Sequence record: MK672798.1
Strand: one strand, 5' to 3'
Length of the DNA: 59,463 nucleotides
From: Escherichia phage Skure
In this document: piece after piece, positions 113-59,463 of the stretch
Layout: each line of letters opens with the position of its first letter
Numbering within the stretch: position 1 is the first letter of the stretch
Translations under genes and position numbers: made by a program
Notes under the pieces: generated by a model
Database searches by the model: none
Told to the model about the DNA's origin: nothing
The model's input: the letters and a program-made list of their open reading frames with translations, nothing else

Positions 113-670
113 ATGAACGGGGCAAGTCAAGAGCAATATGATCGTGACTGGACGAATTACATCCAGTATGCAAATAGCTTGTCCGCTGAAGAGATGGCAA
201 TACGTGACAAAGTTGTTGCTGAGTACATGTTCGACTACAATTGGACTAACGCTTGCATGAGATGCGGGTTCAATGCTATGTTTGCACAGGAGCTTGGCCA
301 ACGCTTTGCCACGGACTGTTATGTTCGATGGAAGCTCAAGGAGATTGAAAGATCCCGTGTTCAACGTACTTCTGAGCAAGCTAACATTGAAGCAGACCTT
401 GAGCGTCAGCATATCATTGAAGCATTAAAACGTGAAGCTCATTATACAGGACCGGGATCTTCTCAAGCTGCTAGAGTCGCCGCATTGGGCAAGCTTGCAC
501 AAATTTATGATTTGGATGCTCCCAAGAAGGCTAAGATTGATGTTACTAACAGAGGCGGCGTAATGATAGTCCCTGCTGTAGCAAATATTGACGAATGGGA
601 AAAAACTGCATCCGAGTCTCAACAACGACTAGTTAAAGAGACTGAAGATGGAGCTAAACCGACAACCTGA
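113..670 (+). CDS. terminase small subunit (putative)
   Basis: 185 aa ORF immediately upstream of and overlapping the large terminase gene; assigned by position. Confidence 0.45.
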   Translation: MNGASQEQYDRDWTNYIQYANSLSAEEMAIRDKVVAEYMFDYNWTNACMRCGFNAMFAQELGQRFATDCYVRWKLKEIERSRVQRTSEQANIEADLERQHIIEALKREAHYTGPGSSQAARVAALGKLAQIYDLDAPKKAKIDVTNRGGVMIVPAVANIDEWEKTASESQQRLVKETEDGAKPTT

Positions 671-2207
671 TAACATGCCGCGAGTCGTCTGGAAACCACA
701 TCCAGGTTCACAGACACTCGCTCTATCCTGCCCCGCTGATATTATCCTATACCACGGAACTCGCGGTCCTGGAAAAACGGACTGCCAGCTTATGCGTTTC
801 CGTAAGAACGTTGGCGTAGGGTACGGTAAATTTTGGAAGGGTATTATATTCGACCGTGAATATAAAAACCTTGATGACCTTGTAACTAAATCCCAGCGTT
901 GGTTTCCTGAATTTAAAGACGGGGCTAAATTCCTTAGCTCTAAGTCTGATTATAAATGGGTTTGGCCTACAGGTGAAGAGCTACTGTTCCGCGTTGCTTG
1001 TAAAGAAAAGGATTACTGGTCTTATCACGGTCACGAATACCCATTTATCGGATGGAACGAATTAACAAAATATCCGGACGGGCGCTTGTTTGAAGCTATG
1101 ATGTCCTGTAACCGTTCATCTTTCTTACCAGAAGATAACCCAATTATTAATCCAGATGGTACGGTCACATATTTACCGGATATCCCTCTTGAAGTGTTTG
1201 CTACCAGTAACCCGTTCGGTGCGGGGCATAACTGGGTTAAGAAACGCTTCATTGACGCTGCACCGATGGGTAAAATACTCAGGAAGACTACGCGAGTGTT
1301 TAACCCGAGGACGCAGAAAGACGAAGATGTGGTTACGACGCAATGCCATATCTTTGGTTCGTACCGTGAAAACAAAAACCTAAGTCCAAAATATATTGCA
1401 GAACTTATGTCTATCACAGACCCGAACAAGCGTGCTGCATGGTTGGGCGGGAGCTGGGATATTACATCCGGTGGTATGTTCGATGATCTGTGGCGTAGCA
1501 CTGTTCACAAAGTACGTCCATTTCCGATTCCAGCGAGTTGGAAGATTACACGTTCTTTCGACTGGGGTTCTTCAAAACCGTTCTCTGTCGGTTGGTGGGC
1601 TATTAGTGATGGTTCGGATGTTGTGCATGAAGATGGCACTACATTCTCCACGGTCCGCGGTGACCTGTTTAGGATTAACGAATGGTATGGGACCAACGGT
1701 AAAACAAACGAAGGTCTACATTTGCTGGACTCAGAAATTGCAAGCGGTATACTGGAGCGGGAATTGGCCTGGGGTATACACGATCGTGTAGTTCCTGGTC
1801 CTGCGGATAACTCCATTTGGGATCTGGAGAACAATAACTCCACCGCTGCAACAATGGCGAAGAAAATTCGTCTTAACGGGAAGTTATACGACGGTATACA
1901 TTGGAAGCGCAGTGATAAGTCTGCTGGGTCACGTAAACGGGGCTGGCAGAAAATGCGTGAGTTCCTTAAAGCTGCACTGCGGCAAGATGCGAACGGTAAA
2001 CCTTTGCCCGGTCCGCGCGAGAATCCAGCAATGTACATTTTTGATAACTGCAACTATTTCTTTGAGCTGGTTCCAAGTCTGCCTCGCGATGAAGTGGATC
2101 AGGACGACGTTGATACGGAATGTGAAGACCATATGGGTGATGAAGTTCGTTATATGGTTCTGGATCAAGCTGTTTATACAGGTGTTGGCAAAACTATCGG
2201 TATTTAA
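648..2207 (+). CDS. terminase large subunit
   Basis: 519 aa; Walker A-like HGTRGPGKTD near N-terminus; first gene of morphogenesis operon; AAGAG RBS-like sequence upstream. Confidence 0.8.
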   Translation: MELNRQPDNMPRVVWKPHPGSQTLALSCPADIILYHGTRGPGKTDCQLMRFRKNVGVGYGKFWKGIIFDREYKNLDDLVTKSQRWFPEFKDGAKFLSSKSDYKWVWPTGEELLFRVACKEKDYWSYHGHEYPFIGWNELTKYPDGRLFEAMMSCNRSSFLPEDNPIINPDGTVTYLPDIPLEVFATSNPFGAGHNWVKKRFIDAAPMGKILRKTTRVFNPRTQKDEDVVTTQCHIFGSYRENKNLSPKYIAELMSITDPNKRAAWLGGSWDITSGGMFDDLWRSTVHKVRPFPIPASWKITRSFDWGSSKPFSVGWWAISDGSDVVHEDGTTFSTVRGDLFRINEWYGTNGKTNEGLHLLDSEIASGILERELAWGIHDRVVPGPADNSIWDLENNNSTAATMAKKIRLNGKLYDGIHWKRSDKSAGSRKRGWQKMREFLKAALRQDANGKPLPGPRENPAMYIFDNCNYFFELVPSLPRDEVDQDDVDTECEDHMGDEVRYMVLDQAVYTGVGKTIGI

Positions 2208-2218
2208 CTGGAGGGTAT

Positions 2219-3715
2219 ATGGGTATTGATGCAACTCACCCGCTATATGACAAGTGGAAGGACGCATGGGTTAAGTGCAACGACTGCTATGAGGGTGAAG
2301 ATAAAATTAAGGAAGAAGGTGTTAAATATCTACCACCTTTAGCTTCCATGATTATTGATGGGATGAATAATCCTAATGATTTGGGCTTTCAACGTTGGCT
2401 CGCTTATCGTCTGCGTGCCAACTTCCCTGACGATTATTCAAGTGCGGTTACAAACAATTTAGGTCTGCTGCACCAGAAGCCCCCTACAATCCAGCTTCCA
2501 CCTGAAATGGAATACATGCGGGAGCTGTGTACTGCGGACGGTGAAGACATTATTGCTCTGCTACGTCGCATCAATGAAATGCAGTTAAAAAATGGGCGTT
2601 TGGGGCTGCTGCTGGACTTGCCTAAAGGTGAGGATGTAAATAACAGACCTTATATTAGTGTTTATGATGCTTTATCCATTATCAACTGGGATGATGGTAA
2701 AGATGAATTGGGTAATATCAACTTGAACATGGTTGTTCTGGATGAAAGCGGCCCTGTACGTGTCAATCAGTTTGACTGGAAAGAAGAGAAGCGTTATCGC
2801 GTTCTACAATTAGGTCCAATGGACACAGATGAAGTTGCAGGTGGGGCGGTCTACTCCCAACATCTGTTTATTAACAATACCAATTATGATGAAGGGCAAA
2901 TGATTGCTCCTTATTATAAAGGTAATACGCTGGATGAAATTCCTTTCCAGTTTGTCAATACAACAGATATTACCCCAGCACCGGAAGCGCCGCCATTGTT
3001 GGGTCTTGCTAACATTTGTCTAAGCATGTACCGAAGTGACGCGGATTACCGCCAATGCTTGCATATGCAGGGTCAGGATACTTTAGTTGTTGTTGGTGGT
3101 TCCATGGAAAATGGAGATAAAGCCCCTCAGCGTATTGGTCCTGGTGCAGTCATTAACGTTTCTCAGGGAGGTGACGCTAAATATGTAGGTGTTAGCGGTG
3201 ACGGTTTGTCCGAGCAACGTCTCGCACTGGCAGCGGATAAGCAGGAAGCCCAAATTAAAGCCGGGCAAATGGTAAACAATACCAAGAGTACGCAGGAATC
3301 AGGCGAAGCTATGAAAACGCGTATTGCTGCGCGTACAGCTAGTTTGATTCGAATTGCGTATACTGGTGCGGCTGGTTTGGAGAACTTGCTGAAGGTTTGC
3401 GCTAAGTGGATGGGTGCTGATCCCGAGAAAGTTGTGGTCAAGCCTAATCTTGAATTTACCAAGAGCATGTTTAACGGTCAGGACTTTGTTCAAATTATTA
3501 CTGCACGCAACCTTAAGGCTCCGATTAGCTTGCAGTCTATTCATGGCTGGCTTGTTGATCAGGGCTTAACCACACTAAGCTTTGAAGAAGAAATGGCAAT
3601 TCTTGAAGAAGAGCTTAAGAAGTGGCCTCTGCCCGATGATGCTAAAGCTGATTTAAACGCAGAGCAGCAAGTAAGCAAAGATCCTAAGGAAGACGACGCT
3701 TCCGATAAAGAATAG
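2219..3715 (+). CDS. portal protein
   Basis: 498 aa ORF directly after terminase; GGAGGG RBS; acidic C-terminus. Confidence 0.7.
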   Translation: MGIDATHPLYDKWKDAWVKCNDCYEGEDKIKEEGVKYLPPLASMIIDGMNNPNDLGFQRWLAYRLRANFPDDYSSAVTNNLGLLHQKPPTIQLPPEMEYMRELCTADGEDIIALLRRINEMQLKNGRLGLLLDLPKGEDVNNRPYISVYDALSIINWDDGKDELGNINLNMVVLDESGPVRVNQFDWKEEKRYRVLQLGPMDTDEVAGGAVYSQHLFINNTNYDEGQMIAPYYKGNTLDEIPFQFVNTTDITPAPEAPPLLGLANICLSMYRSDADYRQCLHMQGQDTLVVVGGSMENGDKAPQRIGPGAVINVSQGGDAKYVGVSGDGLSEQRLALAADKQEAQIKAGQMVNNTKSTQESGEAMKTRIAARTASLIRIAYTGAAGLENLLKVCAKWMGADPEKVVVKPNLEFTKSMFNGQDFVQIITARNLKAPISLQSIHGWLVDQGLTTLSFEEEMAILEEELKKWPLPDDAKADLNAEQQVSKDPKEDDASDKE

Positions 3716-3810
3716 TTGCAACTTCCAAGTTGATTGGTTTATATTAACGAACACGGGGCTGGGACGGCTCAGCTCCAAAAACGTCACACGGGTGACAACG
3801 GAGATAAGAA

Positions 3811-4683
3811 ATGAAAAAGAGTTCTGTAGCTATTAGTGTTGGTATGGCTTTAATTAATCCACGCGCTCGCGGTGAAGGTGATGTGGAACTGGAATACGAA
3901 TATGCATCTGCGGAAGAGATCCCGGCAGAGTTTGCAACTCTTTACGCAGAGCAGGGCGGTAAATACGTTCTTGCAAAAGTTAAAGGTGTAGCCCCTGCTG
4001 ATAGCGTTCGTCGTCTGGAAAGTGCATTGGCAAAAGAACGTAACGACCATCGTCAGGTGAAGCAACAGATTAGCGCACTTGGGCGTCCGGTTGAAGAAGT
4101 CCTTGCGGACCTTGATCGTATCCCACAACTGGAAGCTGCCGCTAACGGTAAAGGTACTCCGGAAGACATCGAAAAGATGGTTAAAGCTCGTCTTGCTCCG
4201 CTCGAGCGTCAATTGCAAACTGTAGCAGCTGAACGCGATTCCGTTAAGCAGGAAATTGAAGGCTACCGCACTCGCGAAACTAAAGCGAAAATTAAAGACG
4301 CAGTTATTGCCGCTGCATCCGGTGCTAAGCTGCGTCCGTCTGCTATCGAAGATGCGGTGACTTATGCACAGTTGCAAATGACCGTCGACGAGAACGGCAA
4401 TGTGGTTACGAAAGATGGGGCGGGTGTAACTCCATACCTAACCCCAGCGGATTGGCTTAACGAGATCCTCCCGAAACGTCCTCACTGGGTTGAGGGTTCT
4501 GCTGGTGGCGGTGCATCTGGTCCGGGCGCTGGCGGTCATCACGGTGAAGACCCATACAGTCACGACGGTTGGAACATCTCTAAGCAGATGAATCTCTGGA
4601 AAACTAATCAATCTTTAGCTAAACGCTTAGCTGAAAAGAATGGCGTAGATCCGCTGAAGCCTGTACGTCCTGCTAAGAAATAA
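3811..4683 (+). CDS. capsid scaffolding protein (putative)
   Basis: 290 aa, charged helical protein between portal and major capsid gene; GGAG RBS. Confidence 0.5.
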   Translation: MKKSSVAISVGMALINPRARGEGDVELEYEYASAEEIPAEFATLYAEQGGKYVLAKVKGVAPADSVRRLESALAKERNDHRQVKQQISALGRPVEEVLADLDRIPQLEAAANGKGTPEDIEKMVKARLAPLERQLQTVAAERDSVKQEIEGYRTRETKAKIKDAVIAAASGAKLRPSAIEDAVTYAQLQMTVDENGNVVTKDGAGVTPYLTPADWLNEILPKRPHWVEGSAGGGASGPGAGGHHGEDPYSHDGWNISKQMNLWKTNQSLAKRLAEKNGVDPLKPVRPAKK

Positions 4684-5937: not shown

Positions 5938-6261
5938 ATGCGTTATCAACGTTATGAACGACATGACTTGATGGAAAAATCGTTGCAGGTGGAGCCAATT
6001 TCGATTACTCTCGATCCTGCTACGATTGACACCACAACTTCAGAAGTAAAAACGGTTACTGTTAAAATAAACTTTGTCCCAGGCGGAACTACAAACAAAG
6101 CGTATAGCGCGTCAGTTGACGGTTCCTCTGCTACAATTAAAGACAACGGGGACGGTACAATTACTGTGACCACAACCGAAAGCAGCGGTACTTCAAACTT
6201 GACAGTAACGTCCAAGGCAAAGGATAGTGTTACTGGTACATGTGTTATTAATGTGACCTAA
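5938..6261 (+). CDS. Ig-like (Big_2-type) domain protein, possible head decoration protein
   Basis: 107 aa, Thr/Ser/Val-rich beta-strand pattern resembling bacterial Ig-like group 2 domains; AGGAG RBS. Confidence 0.45.
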   Translation: MRYQRYERHDLMEKSLQVEPISITLDPATIDTTTSEVKTVTVKINFVPGGTTNKAYSASVDGSSATIKDNGDGTITVTTTESSGTSNLTVTSKAKDSVTGTCVINVT

Positions 6262-6277
6262 AAATAAGGATTAAACA

Positions 6278-14863: not shown

Positions 14864-15272
14864 ATTGCCGGGCTGGCAGACACGTTTGTTAACCACAGTA
14901 AAGGAGTTGTCATCGACTCCTTTTTCTTGGGGCGAGAATGATTGCTGCACATTTGCGGCAAGATGTGTTGATGCTCAATATGGTACTAATATCTATGATC
15001 AAATCGCTGGAAAATATAATACAGAACTAGGAAGTAAAAAATTCACTTTGCAAAGAGTTGGAACCTCTTATCTTCCTTTACTTCTGGATACATACCTGAG
15101 CGAGCGGGTTGAAGCAAACTTTGCGCAAAGAGGCGATGTGGTTACATTTGAGGGAGCATTGGGCTTAACTGCTGGCATATTATGGACTGGATATGTATGG
15201 GCTATGGGTCCGAACGGTGTGGAAACATTCCCGCTTAATAAGATCAAAATTACGGATATTTGGAGGGTCTAA
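14838..15272 (+). CDS. tail assembly protein, NlpC/P60-like (lambda gpK-like)
   Basis: Start moved to ATG 14838 (GGGGGAG RBS upstream) instead of 14700; GENDCCTFAARC motif consistent with NlpC/P60 catalytic Cys. Confidence 0.5.
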   Translation: MRQVSHMSKLPGWQTRLLTTVKELSSTPFSWGENDCCTFAARCVDAQYGTNIYDQIAGKYNTELGSKKFTLQRVGTSYLPLLLDTYLSERVEANFAQRGDVVTFEGALGLTAGILWTGYVWAMGPNGVETFPLNKIKITDIWRV

Positions 15273-18200
15273 TGCCACCAGCAATAATTGGAGCAGCGAT
15301 AGCTTTAGGTGCGTCGGCTGCTGCCGCGGCTAGTATTATTTCAGCAACTACCGCTCTCGTTATTGGTATTGCTGCAACTGCGGCAGGTGCTCTTTTAACT
15401 AAGACACCAAATATGAACTTTGATGCTTACAAGGGGCAGCAAGAGCGTAAACAGGTTCTGCGTGCGGCTACAGCCTCACGTTCTGTTGTATATGGCACGA
15501 CCGTAGCGTCCGGACTATTAGCATTTGCGGAGGAAGAAGCTGGAGATCAAGATGAAGGTGAATGGATGCATCTTGTTGTTGTTCTTGCTAGTCATAAATT
15601 GGAAGGTATTGAAACGATTTGGTTGGGTGATGACGGAATTGATTGGTTTGGTGAAAACGCTACTTGGGAGTTTCATAACGACCGTCAGACTGTTGACCCA
15701 TTCATGTTAAGACATTGTCCTTCCTGGAAGGAGGATATGATTGGCAAGGGTATTGCATGGCTACGTTTAAGCTTAAAGTTTGATGCTGAAAAATTCCCAT
15801 CCGGTTTGCCAAACGTCAAGGTGTTGAAAAAGGGACGTAGAGTCTATGACCCACGTTCCGGTCAAACTGTGTTTAGCGATAACGCTGCTCTTGTTATTCT
15901 TGATTATTTCCGCACGTATTTAAAGCGCAAGGACGAGAATATTAACTGGGACCAATTCAAGGAAGCTGCTAACATCTGCGACGAGTTTGTAACTAATGCG
16001 GATAACACTACGGAAAGACGCTACCGCATTAACGGTGAGTTTGAAGTGGACGAAGCACCTGCCAAGATCCTTGATGCTATGCTTGAAGCTTGCGGTGGGG
16101 AACTAACCTATATTGGCGGTAAGCATGGTCTGTTAGTTGGTGCTTATTACGGCCCAGCCACCATGACTTTGGATGAAAGCTGCATTGCTGGGGATATCAA
16201 AATAATCCCTGAGACGTCTTATAAAGAGCGTACCAATACCATTACAGGTACATTCGTCGACCCGAAGCAAACATACGCTGAAGCAGATTTCCCTCCAGTT
16301 GTGGTTAAGGAATGGGTGGAAAAAGATGGCGGTGAAATAACGCAAGACATGGATTTCCGCTTTGTTACAAGTGAATATCAAGCTCAACGTCTTGCTAATA
16401 TTATTTTACGTCGTAAGCGTGTTGGTCGAACAATTGAAGTTCCGTGTAACATGAAGGGGTATAAATTCCGCCCAGGCATGTATGTCAACGTAACCATTTC
16501 AAATATCGGAATGAAAAACGTTGAGATGCGCGTTACTAAATGGTCATTCGATCCTAAAGGTGGGATTAATCTTGTTCTTCGTCAAGACTTCCTGGAAATG
16601 TGGGACGACGCTATTGGTAAACCAATGGAGCGCCCGGATCTGGTAGACCTTCCGTCTGGTGCTATTGCTCAGCCTCAAAACCTTCAGTATCAGGTATTGC
16701 AGATTAGCGATGTTGTGCAAGGTGTTTTAACGTGGAGCAATATTGGACAGGTAGCATATAACCGCGTAGCCGTGCGACAGGGAGGTACAACGGTTTGGAC
16801 CGCACAAGTCCCTGGCCAAAACGTTCGCGTTACTGGGCTGCTGCGTGGCGCGTATACAGCGCATGTTCAAGCGGTAGCTTATAGCGGGGCAATATCGCCG
16901 GAAGCATATCTGCAATTCAATATTCAAGCACCACCTCCGCCAACTTCTGTTGAAGTGCAACAGGGTTACTTTGCTATAAGTTTGATCCCAAAATCTGCGG
17001 ATATTGCAAACGTTAGCACGCAGTATGATTTCTGGACTTCCGGTGAAACAAGATTGTCTTCCGTGTCTACAGACATTGTAGAACGCGAAGCAACTCGTAA
17101 AGGTATGGGTGCAACTTGGACGTCGGAAGGGTTGAAGAATGACCACACTTATTACTGGTATGTCCGCACCATTAACGCTTTCGGATCATCTGCATTTGTA
17201 GAAGTAGCTGCATTGTGCTTTACAACAGCTACAGATTTGATGCCACAAATTGATTCTGAATTCAAGAAGACGGAGACTTACAAAGAGCTCACTTCAGAAA
17301 TCAAAGGCGTTAAAGACGGGATTACATCTGTCAATGAAAGCCTTGTAGACGCAGAAAAGAGACTCAGCCAGAGTATTAACAGTGTTCAGGAGACTGTGAA
17401 TGGTGTTAGTGCAACTGTGCAGGAAACAAGTAAAGCGGTAGTAACGCTCGAAGGTAAAGTTAACGCTCAATGGGGCGCTAAAATACAAGTTGACAGTAAA
17501 GGGCAAAAATACGTTGCTGGTATCCAGTTAGGTATGGAGGGCTCCGGTGGTGCTGTTCAATCTTACTTCATGGTGAGTGCAAACAACTTTGCTGTTTATA
17601 ACCCGACAAACAGCGTAGCAGAACTGGCATTTGCTGTTAAGAACGGTCAAGTGTTCATGAAGGCTGCGTTTATTGAAAACGGTACGATTGACAGTGCTAA
17701 GATTTCACAGCAAATTCAGTCAACCAATTATGCAGCTGGATCTGCTGGTTGGATGATAAATAAGAACGGTAATGCGGAATTAAATAACGTAACGATAAGA
17801 GGTACTGTATACGCTAGCAACGGGTCTTTTACTGGTACAGTCAACGCTACAAGCGGTAAATTCAAGGGTACTGTGGAAGCCACCAGTTTTGTGGGTGATG
17901 TTGCGAATATGTGTGTCATTGCTGAGTCTGCAATACCAAACACACAAACTACAAGTTCAAGAACCTGGACAAAAACTTTCAAAGACTCATCTGGTTCAAC
18001 ATTATCTAAAGACTTTGTGTTGCTATTAAGTTATAGTTTAACCGCATATACATCAAAACAGGCAAGTCGTATAATTGTGACTGCTAACATAGGGGGGACA
18101 TCAATGACAAGGAGGATTGAGCGAGCTGCTAATGGTCCTGCCATGGATGTAACCATACCTTTAGCAGTGAAAGGAAAGACAGCGTCGAGCGTGACAATAA

Positions 18201-18289
18201 GCGTTACGGAGGAATATACGAATGTCTATGGGAGTTACTTGCGCCCGTCTGTAATATTGATGACTCGCGGAACTGGTAGTTGGTCGTAA
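15260..18289 (+). CDS. tail tip / host specificity protein (lambda gpJ-like) with gpI-like hydrophobic N-terminal region
   Basis: 1009 aa; C-terminal two thirds resemble lambda J (fibronectin-like region DFWTSGETRL...YYWYVRTINAFGSSAFVE and ...KYVAGIQLGMEGS...FMVSANNFAVYNP); N-terminus Gly/Ala-rich as in lambda gpI C-terminus. Confidence 0.8.
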   Translation: MEGLMPPAIIGAAIALGASAAAAASIISATTALVIGIAATAAGALLTKTPNMNFDAYKGQQERKQVLRAATASRSVVYGTTVASGLLAFAEEEAGDQDEGEWMHLVVVLASHKLEGIETIWLGDDGIDWFGENATWEFHNDRQTVDPFMLRHCPSWKEDMIGKGIAWLRLSLKFDAEKFPSGLPNVKVLKKGRRVYDPRSGQTVFSDNAALVILDYFRTYLKRKDENINWDQFKEAANICDEFVTNADNTTERRYRINGEFEVDEAPAKILDAMLEACGGELTYIGGKHGLLVGAYYGPATMTLDESCIAGDIKIIPETSYKERTNTITGTFVDPKQTYAEADFPPVVVKEWVEKDGGEITQDMDFRFVTSEYQAQRLANIILRRKRVGRTIEVPCNMKGYKFRPGMYVNVTISNIGMKNVEMRVTKWSFDPKGGINLVLRQDFLEMWDDAIGKPMERPDLVDLPSGAIAQPQNLQYQVLQISDVVQGVLTWSNIGQVAYNRVAVRQGGTTVWTAQVPGQNVRVTGLLRGAYTAHVQAVAYSGAISPEAYLQFNIQAPPPPTSVEVQQGYFAISLIPKSADIANVSTQYDFWTSGETRLSSVSTDIVEREATRKGMGATWTSEGLKNDHTYYWYVRTINAFGSSAFVEVAALCFTTATDLMPQIDSEFKKTETYKELTSEIKGVKDGITSVNESLVDAEKRLSQSINSVQETVNGVSATVQETSKAVVTLEGKVNAQWGAKIQVDSKGQKYVAGIQLGMEGSGGAVQSYFMVSANNFAVYNPTNSVAELAFAVKNGQVFMKAAFIENGTIDSAKISQQIQSTNYAAGSAGWMINKNGNAELNNVTIRGTVYASNGSFTGTVNATSGKFKGTVEATSFVGDVANMCVIAESAIPNTQTTSSRTWTKTFKDSSGSTLSKDFVLLLSYSLTAYTSKQASRIIVTANIGGTSMTRRIERAANGPAMDVTIPLAVKGKTASSVTISVTEEYTNVYGSYLRPSVILMTRGTGSWS

Positions 18290-18296
18290 TAAATAA

Positions 18297-18326
18297 TTAA
18301 CCCCTCGTTTGAGGGGTTAATTTTCA
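18297..18326. terminator. bidirectional intrinsic terminator between convergent tail tip and lipoprotein genes
   Basis: TTAACCCCTC-gttt-GAGGGGTTAA flanked by T-rich sequence on both strands. Confidence 0.65.
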
Positions 18327-18557
18327 ATAATCAATCACACAGTTTGAAGGTGAACCAATTCGTCGGTATTCATGATCAATCTCATGGCACCATTGCCCAG
18401 TCATTGGAAGCTTTTCGGTATCATAAATTAAAGAACCGTTACCATCACGGTCTAACGGTTTTGGGATAACGCCGGAATTAGGTTTACCAGTATTCAGACC
18501 GTTACCACATGCAGTGAGGGATAAAGTTAATGCCAGCATAATTAAAGCGCGTTTCAT
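18324..18557 (-). CDS. small lipoprotein, putative receptor-blocking superinfection exclusion protein (Cor/Llp-like)
   Basis: 77 aa; signal peptide MKRALIMLALTLSLTAC with lipobox; AAGGAG RBS; opposite strand between tail tip and tail fibre genes. Confidence 0.5.
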   Translation of the reverse strand: MKRALIMLALTLSLTACGNGLNTGKPNSGVIPKPLDRDGNGSLIYDTEKLPMTGQWCHEIDHEYRRIGSPSNCVIDY

Positions 18558-18627
18558 CAGGACTCCTTTGTGTTGTTGTGAATGTTCAATTCTAATATAC
18601 TTGTTGTGTTGAGTAAGTCAAATTAAT

Positions 18628-19254
18628 GTGGGAGATATTATGGCGACTCGTTTATACGGCGTTTTATTGGATGGTTTGAATAAACCTATTATCAACGCCA
18701 CAGTAGCACTTATTTCGAAAGGAAATACTCTTACCGTATTAAACGGAAGCGAGGCAATATTCCGTACAGACGCACAAGGTGCGTATAACGTAACAGTTCA
18801 GACTGGTCGTTATAAAGTTATTATTGGACCGCAAGGTATTGAGCCATATAAAGCTGGTGAGATTGTTATTTATTCAGATAGTAAAGAAGGTTCACTAAAT
18901 AACTATCTTACTAACTGGGTCCCGGAGGAATTAACTCCGGAAGTAATTGCACAAGTAAAAGAACTTGTGGCTAATTCTGAAGCCTATGCACTCCAAGCAG
19001 GTCGATCTGCGGCTTCTGCACAAGCGGACGCTACCGATGCGCGTAACAGCAAGGCAGCTTCTGCAACGTCTGCGGCGGAAGCATTGACTTATAAAAATGA
19101 CTCAAAGGCAAACGCAGATGCAGCTAAACAAGCCCAAGCTGGAGCGGCGGGATCTGCTAACACTGCAACACAAGCTGTAACCACAGTTACTCAGCTTAAA
19201 GCTGATGTTGCTCAGTTAAAACAGATACTCAAGCAATTAAAGACTCCGCGTTGA
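18628..19254 (+). CDS. tail fibre protein, N-terminal segment
   Basis: 208 aa; Ala-rich coiled-coil C-terminal part shares composition with the start of the next ORF, which overlaps in the -1 frame. Confidence 0.55.
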   Translation: MGDIMATRLYGVLLDGLNKPIINATVALISKGNTLTVLNGSEAIFRTDAQGAYNVTVQTGRYKVIIGPQGIEPYKAGEIVIYSDSKEGSLNNYLTNWVPEELTPEVIAQVKELVANSEAYALQAGRSAASAQADATDARNSKAASATSAAEALTYKNDSKANADAAKQAQAGAAGSANTATQAVTTVTQLKADVAQLKQILKQLKTPR

Positions 19255-20612
19255 CTGAAGTCGCAACAGCTAAAGCCGACGCAGTCAAAGAAGTTAATAC
19301 AGCTAAAACATCGGGTGTTGCTGCGGTCAACACCGCTAAGACGGAAGCAATTAATGCAATAACCCCGCTAAAAGACGCTGCCGCAGCTTCTGCAACTCAA
19401 GCGGGTGCTAGTGCAACCGAAGCGGTGAAACAAGCTACAGCAGCCGCAGGCAGCGCTGCAACCGCAGGGCAGAAAGCTACCCTAGCAACAGAGGAAGCTA
19501 ACCGCGCGAAAGGGTATGCGGATTCAATGGACCCCTCCAGCATAGCTAAACTTGATGCTGAAAATACTTTTACCAAAAAGCAGAAGTTTAACCTTAATGC
19601 AGAATTTGGGGCAAACGCTGGTAATCCTCTTTTAATCAAGAGTGTTAACCCAACAATTAAATTTGAAGAAGTTGACGCCACAGGTGATGTAACTGGCTAT
19701 GTTATGGTCATGGAGGGCGGTAACATACAACTCCAGGAGAACGATACTGGTAGCACTAATGTTGTCTTTAACTACAGCGCTTCAGCTAAAACAGTCAGGC
19801 TACCATCTCACAAGACTGGTTCATTTGGGGAAGTTGGTCAGCTCAGGACAACTGGGAGTTATAGTCAAGACAGCATATTAATTAGAGCGACGGGAGCGGG
19901 TTCGGCTTACACAGCTTATACCGGATCTTCCAGTCCATCTATTGTAAGATGGCGATCAGGGCTTGCTACCAGCGGGGGCTATGCATTCTACAACTACAAT
20001 GAGGATGGCACGTATCATTCTACTCCGGTAGCCATTGGGGGTGCGGGTACTGGGATTGCAATTGCGTTCTCTACCAATATTACCGGGCGAATTACAGCAG
20101 GTGGCGGGGACGCAGGAACCGACGCTGCAACGTTTAGATCCAATGGTTCAGCGTCTTATGTTTGTAACTTAGCATCAAATGGAGTTATTCGAACCCGTGT
20201 GGGATTTAGCGACACTGTAGGGAGCTATGGATTTCAAACATATACCACAGCAGGTTCGCCTGAGTATTGGATTAGACTTCCGAGTGCTGGCGGAACCCTT
20301 GCACTGCAAGGAACATCGGGCTTAGCATATAAAAAGGCGATCAATGACGGTAATCCTATTGATGCTTTAAACCGCATCATGGCACAACGCATGGTCACTT
20401 TTATTTATAAGGACGATAAACAAGAAAGAATAAGATTTGGTATTATTGCAGAAGAATCGGAGAAAGTCACACCACAATATGTGAAGCACAATGAAGAGAT
20501 TTATGAGGATGTATACGAGGATGTTATACGAGGATGTACCTGTAGAGGTTACTGTAGATCATACCGACCCCGAAACTGGTATTACAGAACAAATCAAAGA
20601 ACAACGCATTGA
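19251..20612 (+). CDS. tail fibre protein (central/distal segment), TTG start in ORF track
   Basis: 453 aa; Ala-rich N-terminus, Gly/Ser/Thr-rich body; its C-terminus begins an intramolecular-chaperone-like region (GIIAEESEKVTPQYV); frame 0 is open from 19206. Confidence 0.6.
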   Translation: MTEVATAKADAVKEVNTAKTSGVAAVNTAKTEAINAITPLKDAAAASATQAGASATEAVKQATAAAGSAATAGQKATLATEEANRAKGYADSMDPSSIAKLDAENTFTKKQKFNLNAEFGANAGNPLLIKSVNPTIKFEEVDATGDVTGYVMVMEGGNIQLQENDTGSTNVVFNYSASAKTVRLPSHKTGSFGEVGQLRTTGSYSQDSILIRATGAGSAYTAYTGSSSPSIVRWRSGLATSGGYAFYNYNEDGTYHSTPVAIGGAGTGIAIAFSTNITGRITAGGGDAGTDAATFRSNGSASYVCNLASNGVIRTRVGFSDTVGSYGFQTYTTAGSPEYWIRLPSAGGTLALQGTSGLAYKKAINDGNPIDALNRIMAQRMVTFIYKDDKQERIRFGIIAEESEKVTPQYVKHNEEIYEDVYEDVIRGCTCRGYCRSYRPRNWYYRTNQRTTH

Positions 20613-20845: not shown

Positions 20846-21066
20846 AGTTGTCACTTTCTCACCTACCTGCGACCGCACCGCGTTTAAACATAACTCCCTC
20901 CTTTTGTTCAAGTCGTGACGTCCATTGCATTATAAGGGTACCAATGCCAGGCTATTTACAATTTATTTACACGCATATCATGGTAAATAATATGTTAACG
21001 AGTATACTTACCAGCGTAACCCGTTGGTTACATCCGCTTAACAAATCCATATATGGAGATTTTCCT

Positions 21067-21774
21067 ATGTCTGACATGACTCTTTTACCTACTAATCTCG
21101 GTGGCGACGGTTTCGGTGGTGAAGCTGGTGCGGCTGGTATCGGTGGCGCGATCGGTGGCTTAATTGGTTCCTGGATCGGTAATGGTTGGGGTGGCAATGG
21201 TGGTTGGGGTGGTCGCGGTAACTTCGCTGGTCCGGTAGAAGTGCAAGCTTCTGTTGACACCAACGCAATTCTGCAAGCTATCAACAACGGTACTCTTCAG
21301 ACCATTCAGGGGTAGAACGGTACTAACCTGACTGTTGAGCGCTCCGCTGCTTCTACCTATAACGGTATTACTCAGCAGAACACTCAAAACCTGCTGGCTT
21401 CCGTTCAGGGCTTTGCTGGTCTGAACACGCAAATCCAGGGCGGCACCAGCCAAGTGCTCGCGGCTCTGTGTAACAACGAAGCAGCTAACATTACCCGCTC
21501 CTTCCAGGCTCAGTTAGAAGCTCAGAAGTGTTGCTGCGAAACCAACCTGAACATCGAGCGTCAAGCAGAAGCTACTCGTGCTCTCCTGCGCGATCAGCAC
21601 GCACAAGCGCAAGCTGTTCTGATCTGTGACCTGAAGTCCCAGTTGCAGGAAGCTCGCTTTGCAAACTCTCAGTTGGCGCAGACGGCTGGCCTTACCTGTA
21701 AAATCAATCAGGTTGAGCAGTTAGTTAACTTTAAACTGCCAACTCCTCCAACTCCTCCGACTGGCTGCTGCTAA
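21067..21774 (+). CDS. Gly-rich N-terminus / Cys-containing C-terminus protein interrupted by in-frame TAG at 21313-21315
   Basis: ATG 21067 with GGAG RBS; same frame open on both sides of the TAG; coding-like composition continues 46 codons to the annotated downstream ORF 21454-21774. Confidence 0.4.
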
Positions 21775-58116: not shown

Positions 58117-58554
58117 ATGGCACTTCAACCTCGTGGTATTCGTAATAACAATCCAGGCAATATTCGCTGGGGTGATAATTGGCAGGGCTTAGTTCCTGCT
58201 GATAAGCGAACCGATAAATCTTTTGCTCAATTCACGCAACCGATTTACGGCATTCGTGCGCTAGCGAAAATCCTGACAAACTACACCAAACGTGAAGGCT
58301 TGCCCAATGTAGGTAAGAAAAACATCGACACTGTACGTGAAATTATCGCTCGCTGGGCACCGCCTAACGAAAACGATACGGAAGCGTATATTCGCTCTGT
58401 TGCTAAAGCAATTGGTGTTCAACCTAACGATCCAATTAATGTCTTCGACAAGGCAATTATGTCAGGATTGGTGAAAGCAATCATTCGTCATGAAAATGGC
58501 ATGATGCCCTATACCGACGACGTAATTAACCGCGCTATTGCAATGGTACTTTAA
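58117..58554 (+). CDS. putative endolysin
   Basis: Start at ATG 58117 (GGAGG RBS) rather than 57847; 146 aa soluble protein immediately upstream of holin and spanins; catalytic family not identified. Confidence 0.45.
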   Translation: MALQPRGIRNNNPGNIRWGDNWQGLVPADKRTDKSFAQFTQPIYGIRALAKILTNYTKREGLPNVGKKNIDTVREIIARWAPPNENDTEAYIRSVAKAIGVQPNDPINVFDKAIMSGLVKAIIRHENGMMPYTDDVINRAIAMVL

Positions 58555-58590
58555 CTGACGGGGCGTTAGCCCCTTTTGTTTGGAGGGAAC

Positions 58591-58935
58591 ATGTTCAATT
58601 CACCCAACGAACATTGGGCAGTTCTAGCGGGGTTTGCGTTTATCTCCCTCATTGGGGGAGCTCTCGGTTATGTCATGCGTACAATAGACGCTGGTAAGAA
58701 AGTACGGGCAAGCATTGCGTTTCTTGAAGGCTTATCCGCCGCTTTCTTTGGCGTTATAATGTATGCGATCTACAGGGAGTTTAACATCAGCCTTTGGTTC
58801 GCTTTTGGCCTTGCTGGCCTATTTGCTTGGGCAGGTTCACGTGCTACGCTAAAAGCCCTAACGTCGCTTATAGCTTCACGGACAGGGATCAAACTCGATT
58901 CAGGGGACTGCAAACATGAAAACGATTCTAAATAA
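58591..58935 (+). CDS. holin (three TM helices, class I-like)
   Basis: Start at ATG 58591 with GGAGGG RBS; three hydrophobic helices and charged C-terminus. Confidence 0.5.
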   Translation: MFNSPNEHWAVLAGFAFISLIGGALGYVMRTIDAGKKVRASIAFLEGLSAAFFGVIMYAIYREFNISLWFAFGLAGLFAWAGSRATLKALTSLIASRTGIKLDSGDCKHENDSK

Positions 58936-59392
58936 CTTCTTCAGTTTTATAAAAACTAAACCGCGTCTGTTTATCGAGTATTTGATGATCGGCGCGGTTG
59001 TGTTTTTATGCGGGGTGGCTGCATACTTGTGGTCACAGAACGAGCTTAGCAAAACTAATTTAAATCATGCTGAGCAAAGACTAACCGTTGTAGAACGGGA
59101 CAATGCAAAGCTGGGCGAAGCTGTTGTATTTCTTGCATCCCAACGGGAGAAGGATACTGAATCCTATCGAAAATTGGCTTCAGCAATTGAAAGTGAGCAA
59201 CATAACCACAGGTTGCTTCAGGACAAATTAAAAGCACTGGAGAAAAGCAATGCCGACGTCAAAGCTTATCTTAATGAGCGTGTTCCTGATGATTTGCGCA
59301 GGCTGCTCGACGGAGATACAACCTCCACCACCGCCGCAGATAGTGAAGATAAAACTTCCGGCCCATCTGTTGGTAGAATGTCGGGAAGTTGA
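58916..59392 (+). CDS. i-spanin (Rz-like)
   Basis: 158 aa; N-terminal TM helix then coiled-coil periplasmic domain; overlaps holin end and contains the o-spanin start. Confidence 0.6.
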   Translation: MKTILNNFFSFIKTKPRLFIEYLMIGAVVFLCGVAAYLWSQNELSKTNLNHAEQRLTVVERDNAKLGEAVVFLASQREKDTESYRKLASAIESEQHNHRLLQDKLKALEKSNADVKAYLNERVPDDLRRLLDGDTTSTTAADSEDKTSGPSVGRMSGS

Positions 59393-59463
59393 TAAATATC
59401 CTTTGGTTTATACAAGGGACATTATCCAACGTTTGCAGGATACAGAAACAGCTCTGACTGAAT
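59250..59463 (+). CDS. o-spanin (Rz1-like lipoprotein), partial, starts in +1 frame inside the i-spanin gene and runs off the window
   Basis: Hand translation MPTSKLILMSVFLMICAGCSTEIQPPPPPQIVKIK...; lipoprotein-like signal with Cys and a poly-Pro stretch typical of Rz1. Confidence 0.5.
   Translation, partial: MPTSKLILMSVFLMICAGCSTEIQPPPPPQIVKIKLPAHLLVECREVDKYPLVYTRDIIQRLQDTETALTE

What the first reader, a model, noticed from the sequence alone, without database searches (positions are those of the whole stretch)
18324..18557. Opposite-strand lipoprotein gene next to the receptor-binding genes
A 77 aa protein with a lipoprotein signal (LTLSLTAC lipobox) and strong RBS is encoded antisense between the tail tip gene and the tail fibre genes, bracketed by a bidirectional terminator. 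Phage lipoproteins placed beside receptor-binding genes (Cor and Llp types) block the phage receptor and exclude superinfection.
Basis: partly seen in the sequence, partly recalled or inferred. Interest (0 to 1): 0.45.

Follow-up and report, generated by a model that had tools for sequence, protein, structure and literature searches.

The report
LamB-type phage exclusion lipoprotein gene

Summary
The 77-aa ORF at 18324-18557 (-) is real. It has a canonical lipoprotein signal (MKR, hydrophobic core, LTAC; Gly at +2), an AAGGAG RBS, a sigma-70-like promoter and one shared hairpin terminator with gene J. The mature domain is under strong purifying selection (omega about 0.02-0.1).

The window is a Seuratvirus, 99.4% identical to SLUR25. 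The same gene is annotated "lipoprotein / apparent moron" in phage Seurat.

It is not a Cor or Llp homologue: only the signal peptides align. It is 55% identical to gp116 (Lpp010) of temperate phage mEp010. Published work shows that Lpp010 expression excludes LamB-dependent mEp phages and lambda.

The gene always lies convergent to J, about 30-40 nt downstream, in at least six phage lineages. All eight carriers with a measured receptor use LamB. None of 23 relatives that use LptD, FhuA, BtuB, TolC, YncD or OmpA has it. LamB users lambda and HK97 lack it.

Best reading: a LamB-directed superinfection-exclusion and progeny-protection lipoprotein, working like Llp or Cor. The physical target and mechanism are untested. 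It is a new member of a known kind and of low interest.

The parts
18324..18557 (-). Lipoprotein precursor CDS, 77 aa. Signal peptide is residues 1-16 (18510-18557). Lipobox LTAC is 18507-18518. Mature domain C17-Y77 is 18327-18509, with conserved Cys57 and Cys73.
   Evidence: ORF and translation. (PHROG 12984 'lipoprotein', E 2e-55). (invariant C17, PNSGV, T47, E48, G54; near-invariant D46, K49-L-P, T53, Q55-W-C57, N72-C73). (purifying selection on the mature domain, free divergence of the signal peptide).
18563..18568 (-). Shine-Dalgarno AAGGAG, 5 nt upstream of the ATG
   Evidence: Read. Conserved in Seurat, KurtStettler, 9g and CSP1.
18594..18621 (-). Sigma-70-like promoter TTGACT-16 nt-TATATT. 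The -10 hexamer ends 36 nt before the ATG.
   Evidence: 10/12 match. The region has 4 such sites against 3.3 expected, so the scan alone is weak. The identical hexamers and spacing in Seurat, KurtStettler and CSP1 add support. Activity is not shown.
18295..18322 (.). Shared (bidirectional) intrinsic-terminator-like hairpin between the stop codons of J and the lipoprotein gene. It also marks a recombination junction of the module.
   Evidence: 12-bp stem, -17.6 kcal/mol, z -4.9. A GC-rich hairpin with different sequence sits at the same place in all 8 loci compared. It is annotated as a bidirectional terminator in Seurat. Homology of CSP1 and of HK97 breaks at this point.
15272..18289 (+). Central tail fibre / tail tip gene J (1005 aa). 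Its C-terminal ~150 aa (17840-18286) are the presumed LamB-binding domain ('type a').
   Evidence: phrog_31. (lambda gpJ structures, E 6e-29). (C-terminus 96-98% identical to that of LamB-dependent Bas21, Bas23 and Bas24). (C-terminus aligns end to end with mEp010 J). Receptors.
18640..19254 (+). First lateral tail fibre gene (conserved N-terminal anchor), divergent from the lipoprotein gene. Context only.

Best explanation
The gene encodes a small lipoprotein precursor. It is exported by Sec, lipidated at Cys17, cleaved by signal peptidase II, and sent by Lol to the inner leaflet of the outer membrane, because residue +2 is Gly and not Asp.

It is a self-contained unit with its own sigma-70-like promoter, strong RBS and terminator. 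It lies antisense to the late tail operon, so host RNA polymerase can express it independently of the structural genes, and from a repressed prophage in the temperate relatives.

In the infected cell or lysogen, the 61-residue mature domain probably carries a Cys57-Cys73 disulfide. It makes the cell refractory to phages whose tail tip uses the maltoporin LamB. It most likely does this by binding LamB from the periplasmic side, as Llp does with FhuA and as reported for the Rtp accessory protein with LptD.

For this virulent phage the payoff would be no superinfection, and no loss of progeny on LamB in the debris of the lysed cell.

Shown here: the gene, its signals, selection, synteny, and the association with LamB use. 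Shown in the literature for a 55%-identical homologue: exclusion of LamB-dependent phages, including lambda. Inferred: lipidation, outer-membrane location, early expression, the disulfide, direct LamB binding, and the same activity in this orthologue.
For: 1. Homology to a tested exclusion factor. The protein is 55% identical to mEp010_116 (E 4e-32). That gene is gp116/Lpp010, which excludes mEp010, mEp044, mEp554 and lambda when expressed from a plasmid (PMC11893012). These phages need LamB.

2. Receptor association. Bas21-24 are LamB-dependent and all carry the gene at 87-100% identity. None of the 21 other BASEL small siphoviruses (LptD, FhuA, BtuB, TolC, YncD) appears among the 43 hit records. 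In the mEpimmI group, the four LamB phages carry it and the two OmpA phages carry a different lipoprotein type.

3. Replacement in a congener. The LptD-dependent Seuratvirus VogelGryff has a J that stops before the C-terminal domain. Its slot holds an unrelated antisense 321-aa protein with no signal peptide.

4. Fixed synteny. The gene is convergent to J, about 30-40 nt downstream, with a hairpin between them. This holds in Seuratvirus, Nonagvirus 9g, Dhillonvirus EP23, Drexlerviridae AS5, mEpimmI phages, a lambdoid Salmonella prophage and the E. coli Nissle prophage. In AS5 the far flank is not a tail fibre gene, so the linkage is to J.

5. Independence from the J tip type. The mature domain stays about 97% identical between the window (J tip type a) and KurtStettler (type b), while the whole aligned J tail regions are about 47% identical and the terminal ~140 aa about 31-32%. 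This fits a constant host target rather than co-evolution with the phage tip.

6. Canonical lipoprotein signal with no Asp at +2 in any homologue. omega is 0.02-0.19 on the mature domain.

7. Precedent. T1 cor has the same convergent, terminator-separated layout after its receptor-binding locus. T5 llp has its own promoter. Llp binds the periplasmic face of FhuA. The Rtp accessory protein is reported to bind the periplasmic face of LptD. The BASEL authors state that this locus encodes receptor-binding proteins and exclusion factors.
Against: - No experiment exists on this orthologue or on any virulent-phage member.
- Lpp010 did not exclude the LamB-dependent mEp013, so exclusion is not a simple loss of LamB.
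- LamB has no plug domain, so the Llp mechanism cannot be transferred as it stands.
- Lambda and HK97 use LamB without this gene, so it is dispensable for LamB users.
- E. coli Nissle carries a 95%-identical copy, yet lambda was still removed from suspension in a maltose-enhanced way. This is compatible with a block after adsorption, or with lack of expression.
- AlphaFold models are poor (pLDDT 60-62), so no structural support is available.
- The receptor association rests on few independent lineages.
- The promoter is only a consensus match.
Confidence: 0.75

Rival explanations
1. It is an exclusion factor, but it acts after adsorption. The periplasmic lipoprotein would block the trigger for DNA ejection, or passage of the tape-measure protein and DNA across the periplasm, rather than masking or remodelling LamB.
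For: A lipoprotein anchored in the inner leaflet of the outer membrane faces the periplasm, not the phage. mEp013 escapes Lpp010 although it needs LamB. E. coli Nissle carries the gene, resists lambda, yet still removes lambda from suspension in a LamB/maltose-dependent way.
Against: The excluded phages (mEpimmI phages and lambda) are known to share only LamB. The gene travels with the J tip, not with tape-measure or injection genes. Llp and the Rtp factor both act on the receptor itself. The Nissle data are slow 24-h inactivation assays in a capsulated strain, and expression of the gene there is unknown.
Confidence: 0.15
2. It is a host-fitness 'moron' unrelated to phage entry, for example a Bor/Iss-like envelope lipoprotein that changes serum resistance, adhesion or permeability.
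For: It has moron architecture (annotation). It occurs in prophages of commensal and pathogenic E. coli and Salmonella.
Against: Most carriers are strictly virulent phages, which gain nothing from long-term host fitness. The gene is linked to J and to LamB use. A homologue has a measured exclusion phenotype. No similarity to Bor/Iss or any Pfam, NCBIfam or PADLOC family was found.
Confidence: 0.05
3. It is the outer-membrane spanin subunit (Rz1-like) used for the last step of lysis.
For: It is a small outer-membrane lipoprotein with some prolines and cysteines. There is a weak PHROG hit to an Rz-like spanin (E 0.006), over residues 1-32, essentially the signal-peptide end.
Against: It lies about 40 kb from the lysis cassette (endolysin 58117-58551, holin 58591-58932). 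That cassette has its own Rz-like gene (58916-59392) with an overlapping candidate o-spanin, MSVFLMICAGC|STEIQPPPPP (59274 onward). The gene is absent from VogelGryff, a member of the same genus. It is present in phages with unrelated lysis cassettes.
Confidence: 0.02

Closest known systems
Type-C Lpp exclusion lipoprotein of mEpimmI phages (mEp010 gp116, 'Lpp010'; Negrete-Mendez et al. 2025, PMC11893012)
   Same: Homologous over the whole mature domain (55% identity, E 4e-32). Same size. Same convergent position after J with a hairpin between. The carrier phages use LamB. The J C-terminal 350 aa are also homologous.
   Different: The host phage is temperate and belongs to an unrelated lineage. 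Residues just after the lipid-modified Cys differ (AVDKEAALHN versus GNGLNTGK). The promoter region is not conserved. Exclusion is tested there and not here.
T5 Llp (lytic conversion lipoprotein, blocks FhuA)
   Same: 77-aa precursor and about 61-aa mature outer-membrane lipoprotein of a virulent siphovirus. Encoded next to the receptor-binding gene with its own promoter. Serves exclusion and protection of progeny. Acts from the periplasmic side.
   Different: No detectable sequence relationship beyond the signal peptide. Its target is a TonB-dependent transporter whose plug mediates the effect, and LamB has no plug. A fold comparison was not possible.
Cor (phi80, N15, HK022, T1; FhuA-directed exclusion)
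   Same: Small lipoprotein. In T1 it lies convergent to the receptor-binding locus downstream of J, separated by a terminator.
   Different: Only the signal peptide aligns. Different receptor.
The Rtp accessory protein adjacent to the receptor-binding gene (LptD-directed exclusion factor; gene name rtp45 is from my own knowledge, not from the text read)
   Same: Accessory gene of the same 'receptor-binding locus downstream of gpJ' in small siphoviruses. Reported to bind the periplasmic face of the receptor.
   Different: Different receptor. Sequence relationship was not tested here. It accompanies a separate receptor-binding protein rather than a J C-terminal domain.

Membership tests
Bacterial lipoprotein (Lgt/LspA/Lnt substrate) | Positively charged n-region, hydrophobic core, lipobox [LVI][ASTVI][GAS]C with the Cys within about 15-35 residues of the start | tested here: met
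   MKR / ALIMLALTLSL / L-T-A-C17. The Cys is invariant in 30 of 30 sequences.
Bacterial lipoprotein (Lgt/LspA/Lnt substrate) | Outer-membrane sorting: no Asp at +2 (E. coli Lol-avoidance rule) | tested here: met
   Gly at +2 here. The homologues have G, A, S or T and never D. This is a sequence rule only.
Bacterial lipoprotein (Lgt/LspA/Lnt substrate) | Actual acylation and globomycin-sensitive processing | not testable with these tools
   Needs labelling or a globomycin experiment.
mEpimmI type-C Lpp (Lpp010) exclusion lipoproteins | Significant similarity across the mature domain | tested here: met
   42 of 76 residues identical, E 4e-32. Shared PNSGVIP, DTEKLPxTGQWC and GSPSNC motifs.
mEpimmI type-C Lpp (Lpp010) exclusion lipoproteins | Gene convergent to and immediately downstream of J | tested here: met
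mEpimmI type-C Lpp (Lpp010) exclusion lipoproteins | Carrier phage uses LamB | tested here: inconclusive
   The receptor of the window phage itself is unknown. Relatives with 96-97% identical J tips and 97-100% identical lipoproteins (Bas21, 23, 24) are LamB-dependent.
mEpimmI type-C Lpp (Lpp010) exclusion lipoproteins | Expression excludes LamB-dependent phages | not testable with these tools
   Shown only for Lpp010.
T5 Llp family | Homology of the mature domain | tested here: not met
   hhalign aligns residues 1-21 only. No PHROG or Pfam hit to an Llp family. No PDB sequence hit.
T5 Llp family | Llp-like fold | tested here: inconclusive
   Two AlphaFold2 runs gave pLDDT 61.7 and 59.5. Foldseek against the PDB gave no match.
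Cor family | Homology of the mature domain | tested here: not met
   hhalign against T1 Cor aligns the signal peptide only.
Rz1-type o-spanin | Gene embedded in, overlapping or adjacent to an i-spanin gene in the lysis cassette | tested here: not met
   The lysis cassette is at 58117-59392 and has its own overlapping lipoprotein ORF. This gene is about 40 kb away.
Phage moron (independently transcribed insertion in an operon) | Own promoter and terminator; present or absent between otherwise syntenic relatives | tested here: met
   Promoter-like site and hairpin. Absent from VogelGryff and HK97 at the same junction. Annotated 'apparent moron' in Seurat. Promoter activity is not shown.

The most novel reading that the evidence does not exclude
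LamB is a plug-less trimeric porin, so this family cannot work by the plug-jamming 'reverse allostery' that Llp uses on FhuA. It may represent a structurally new way for a roughly 60-residue periplasmic lipoprotein to disable a general porin as a phage receptor. One route would be threading into or capping the channel from below, which would also shut maltodextrin uptake. The effect would reach across at least six phage lineages, including lambda. The 95%-identical copy in the E. coli Nissle 1917 prophage could then be an overlooked contributor to that probiotic's lambda resistance.
Probability: 0.35. Interest if true: 0.5.

Novelty: new member of a known kind. Interest (0 to 1): 0.25.

Why it matters
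It links the unnamed 'lipoprotein' or 'hypothetical protein' of Seurat-, 9g- and EP23-like coliphages, and of about 39 of 5,426 complete E. coli genomes (including Nissle 1917), to an experimentally tested LamB-associated exclusion factor.

In practice the gene marks LamB use in small siphoviruses. It also predicts cross-exclusion between cocktail phages that share LamB.

LamB has no plug, unlike the transporter targeted by the structurally understood case (Llp-FhuA). The family is therefore a tractable case for asking how a periplasmic lipoprotein disables such a porin. None of this changes current concepts.

Tried and rejected
- Pfam, NCBIfam and PADLOC gave no family. The only hits were weak LptM matches (E 0.02 and 0.004, below cut-offs) confined to the signal peptide and lipobox. 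I rejected these as evidence of LptM or LptD mimicry.
- A PDB sequence search gave nothing.
- The profile search of 1.84 billion representatives found three family clusters (one a truncated or frameshifted copy, one new) and two giant repeat proteins. I treated the repeat proteins as low-complexity matches.
- AlphaFold2 on the full precursor and on the mature domain gave pLDDT 62 and 60. Foldseek against the PDB returned no match, so no fold claim is made.
- The o-spanin idea was rejected after locating the lysis cassette and its own candidate o-spanin.
- The idea that the lipoprotein co-evolves with a particular J tip was rejected, because two divergent J tip types accompany nearly identical lipoproteins.
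- 'Every LamB phage needs it' was rejected: HK97 has a J tip 87% identical to KurtStettler's but no such gene, and lambda gave no hit in the tblastn.
- A literature search for the Seurat genome note found nothing usable.

Full report
**Observation**

The window holds a 77-codon ORF on the minus strand at 18324-18557. It starts with ATG and is preceded by AAGGAG at a 5-nt spacing. The product is MKRALIMLALTLSLTAC|GNGLNTGKPNSGVIPKPLDRDGNGSLIYDTEKLPMTGQWCHEIDHEYRRIGSPSNCVIDY.

- The N-terminus is a textbook lipoprotein signal: K2/R3, an 11-residue hydrophobic core, lipobox L-T-A-C17. Gly at +2 predicts outer-membrane sorting under the E. coli Lol rule.
- Upstream on the plus strand lies gene J (15272-18289; PHROG 'central tail fiber J', E 1e-182; lambda gpJ structures, E 6e-29).
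- Downstream lie the lateral tail fibre genes (18640-19254 and 19251-20612).
- Between the two convergent stop codons sits a 12-bp GC-rich hairpin (18295-18322, -17.6 kcal/mol, z -4.9).
The 5' side carries a sigma-70-like site (TTGACT-16-TATATT, 18621..18594) and the divergent fibre gene.

**Is it a real gene?**

Yes.

- A search of 5.8 billion proteins found 29 clusters. The lipobox Cys is invariant. Conserved motifs are PNSGV, DTEKLPxTGQWC and a near-invariant NC, giving two conserved mature cysteines.
- Codon analysis of eight loci shows strong purifying selection on the mature domain. Against KurtStettler pS is 0.53 and pN 0.03, omega about 0.03. omega is 0.02-0.19 wherever it could be computed.
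- The signal peptide diverges freely (pN 0.3-0.6) but stays hydrophobic.
- The hairpin is present at the same place in all eight loci with different sequences. The promoter hexamers are identical in Seurat, KurtStettler and CSP1.

**What the window is**

The region is 99.4% identical to Escherichia phages SLUR25 and SLUR63, and 87-90% identical to Seurat, CAjan, slur01 and the BASEL phages GottfriedDienst, WildeMaa and SeppeHuegi. It is therefore a Seuratvirus (Queuovirinae).

In phage Seurat the gene is already annotated 'lipoprotein', with a 'bidirectional terminator between end of gene and end of apparent moron'. It matches PHROG 12984 'lipoprotein' at E 2e-55.

**What it is related to**

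- No Pfam, NCBIfam, PADLOC or PDB family matches. The only hits are weak and limited to the signal peptide.
- A profile search of 1.84 billion representatives shows a very narrow family: three clusters at the 50% identity level plus two spurious repeat proteins.
- Profile comparison with T5 Llp (sequence verified as 100% T5) and with T1 Cor aligns only the signal peptide. It is therefore not a member of either family.

tblastn against 50,697 phage records found the gene in 43 records:

- most Seuratviruses;
- Nonagvirus 9g;
- Dhillonviruses EP23, HH3, PNS1, Maverick and CS16;
- the Drexlerviridae Enterobacter phage AS5;
- the temperate phages mEp010, mEp013, mEp044, mEp554 and MagusPhagus.

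The mEp010 hit is mEp010_116, 55% identical over the mature domain. Negrete-Mendez et al. 2025 (PMC11893012) cloned exactly this gene (gp116, 'type-C' Lpp, Lpp010). They showed that its expression excludes mEp010, mEp044, mEp554 and, unexpectedly, lambda, but not mEp013. All four mEp phages require LamB.

**Association with the receptor**

The BASEL S5 table gives measured terminal receptors.

- Bas21-24, all Seuratviruses, need LamB. All four carry the gene at 87-100% identity.
- The other 21 small siphoviruses (Bas01-20 and Bas25) use LptD, FhuA, BtuB, TolC or YncD. None appears among the 43 hits.
- In the mEpimmI group, the four LamB users carry it. The two OmpA users carry another lipoprotein type.
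- In total, 8 of 8 tested carriers use LamB and 0 of 23 tested non-LamB relatives carry it. These are not 31 independent observations.

The Seuratvirus VogelGryff (LptD) is instructive. Its J stops just before the C-terminal domain, and the slot holds an unrelated antisense 321-aa protein without a signal peptide.

The converse does not hold. HK97 has a J tip 87% identical to KurtStettler's but no lipoprotein gene, and the homology breaks inside the hairpin. Lambda also did not appear among the tblastn hits.

**Linkage is to J and probably to the host target**

- In every lineage examined the gene is convergent to J, about 30-40 nt downstream.
- In AS5 the other flank is not a tail fibre gene.
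- Two divergent J tip types accompany it. Type a occurs in the window, most Seuratviruses and the Dhillonviruses. Type b occurs in KurtStettler, 9g, mEp010 and HK97. The aligned J tail regions are about 47% identical and the terminal ~140 aa about 31-32%.
- The mature lipoprotein of KurtStettler differs from the window's at only two positions.
- A nearly invariant lipoprotein beside a variable tip, with both tip types proven LamB-dependent, argues that the lipoprotein's partner is the constant host component rather than the phage tip.

**Mechanism**

The gene is an independently transcribed, antisense unit with the architecture of a moron. That layout allows expression by host polymerase regardless of late transcription. 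The product should be an outer-membrane lipoprotein facing the periplasm.

By homology with Lpp010 it makes cells refractory to LamB-dependent phages. Two analogies suggest that the target is LamB itself, bound from the periplasmic side:

- Llp binds the periplasmic face of FhuA and folds extracellular loops inward.
- The Rtp accessory protein is reported to bind the periplasmic face of LptD.

The BASEL authors state that virulent porin-targeting phages use such proteins to stop progeny adsorbing to debris of the lysed cell, and that this locus carries exclusion factors.

Direct binding is inferred. LamB has no plug, so the structural details must differ. The mEp013 escape, and the slow LamB-dependent removal of lambda by E. 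coli Nissle (which carries a 95%-identical copy), leave room for a block after adsorption.

**Rivals**

- o-spanin role: excluded. The lysis cassette at 58117-59392 has its own Rz-like gene with an overlapping lipoprotein ORF, and the gene is missing from VogelGryff, a member of the same genus.
- Host-fitness moron: unlikely, because most carriers are virulent phages.
- Chance ORF: excluded by conservation.

**Structure**

Two AlphaFold2 runs, on the precursor and on the mature domain, gave pLDDT 62 and 60. Foldseek against the PDB gave nothing. No fold statement is possible.

**Verdict**

The feature is a new member of a known kind and is already annotated in relatives. Interest is low, about 0.25. 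The open point is how a plug-less porin is disabled.

Noticed in passing
window 59274-59463 (+), overlapping 58916-59392: Candidate Rz1-like o-spanin, MSVFLMICAGC|STEIQPPPPPQ..., in another frame over the 3' end of an Rz-like gene (N-terminal transmembrane segment plus coiled coil). It runs off the end of the window and would continue at window position 1 if the sequence is circularly permuted. Seurat's record calls the Rz-like gene 'hypothetical protein' and annotates no spanin.
   Followed up: partly
window 21067-21774 (+): A 234-aa Gly- and Cys-rich protein (PHROG 9288, unknown function) is interrupted by a single in-frame TGA at 21313-21315. The ORF finder therefore splits it into 20848-21315 and 21454-21774. 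SeppeHuegi annotates two CDS here, while the records for SLUR25, slur01 and other relatives list a single hypothetical protein under the match. It could be a nonsense mutation or read-through.
   Followed up: partly
window 18640-20612 (+): The lateral tail fibre is split into a conserved N-terminal anchor gene (204 aa) and a distal gene (453 aa), whereas Seurat has one 602-aa gene. Window positions about 19100-19300 are about 88% identical to ltfA of the T5-like phages HK6 and Gostya9. This points to fibre-module exchange with Demerecviridae.
   Followed up: no
L014 (HK97 NC_002167) 2900-3150; L004 (KurtStettler): The HK97 J tip is 87% identical to KurtStettler's. Nucleotide homology runs through the J stop into the first half of the terminator hairpin and then stops, and no lipoprotein ORF follows. 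A 12/12-nt match to the -35 region of the lipoprotein promoter lies about 45 nt further on. It looks like a clean deletion or non-acquisition of the gene.
   Followed up: partly
L015 (E. coli Nissle chromosome NZ_CP148105) 6035-6268 (-): A lambdoid prophage of E. coli Nissle 1917 carries J followed by a convergent 77-aa lipoprotein that differs from the window's at 4 of 77 residues. 39 of 5,426 complete E. coli genomes have the cassette. Nissle's lambda resistance has been attributed to a prophage repressor (PMC5987069), and this gene was not considered.
   Followed up: partly
L003 (VogelGryff MZ501110) 655-4293: In this LptD-dependent Seuratvirus, J (879 aa) lacks the C-terminal domain. The antisense slot holds a 321-aa protein without a signal peptide, presumably the separate LptD-binding protein. 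No small lipoprotein is annotated there.
   Followed up: partly
L011 and L012 (E. coli contigs carrying P0027): A divergent 72-aa family member (…ALCC|TAFANTN…) sits among small unannotated ORFs with no J gene within the contig. This is the only context found that breaks the 'next to J' rule. The contigs are short (4-5 kb).
   Followed up: no
L006 (Shigella phage EP23 NC_016566) 3486-3728: The lipoprotein gene is present (80 aa) but not annotated in the EP23 and PNS1 records. The 'gap' between their J and tail fibre genes is this gene.
   Followed up: yes
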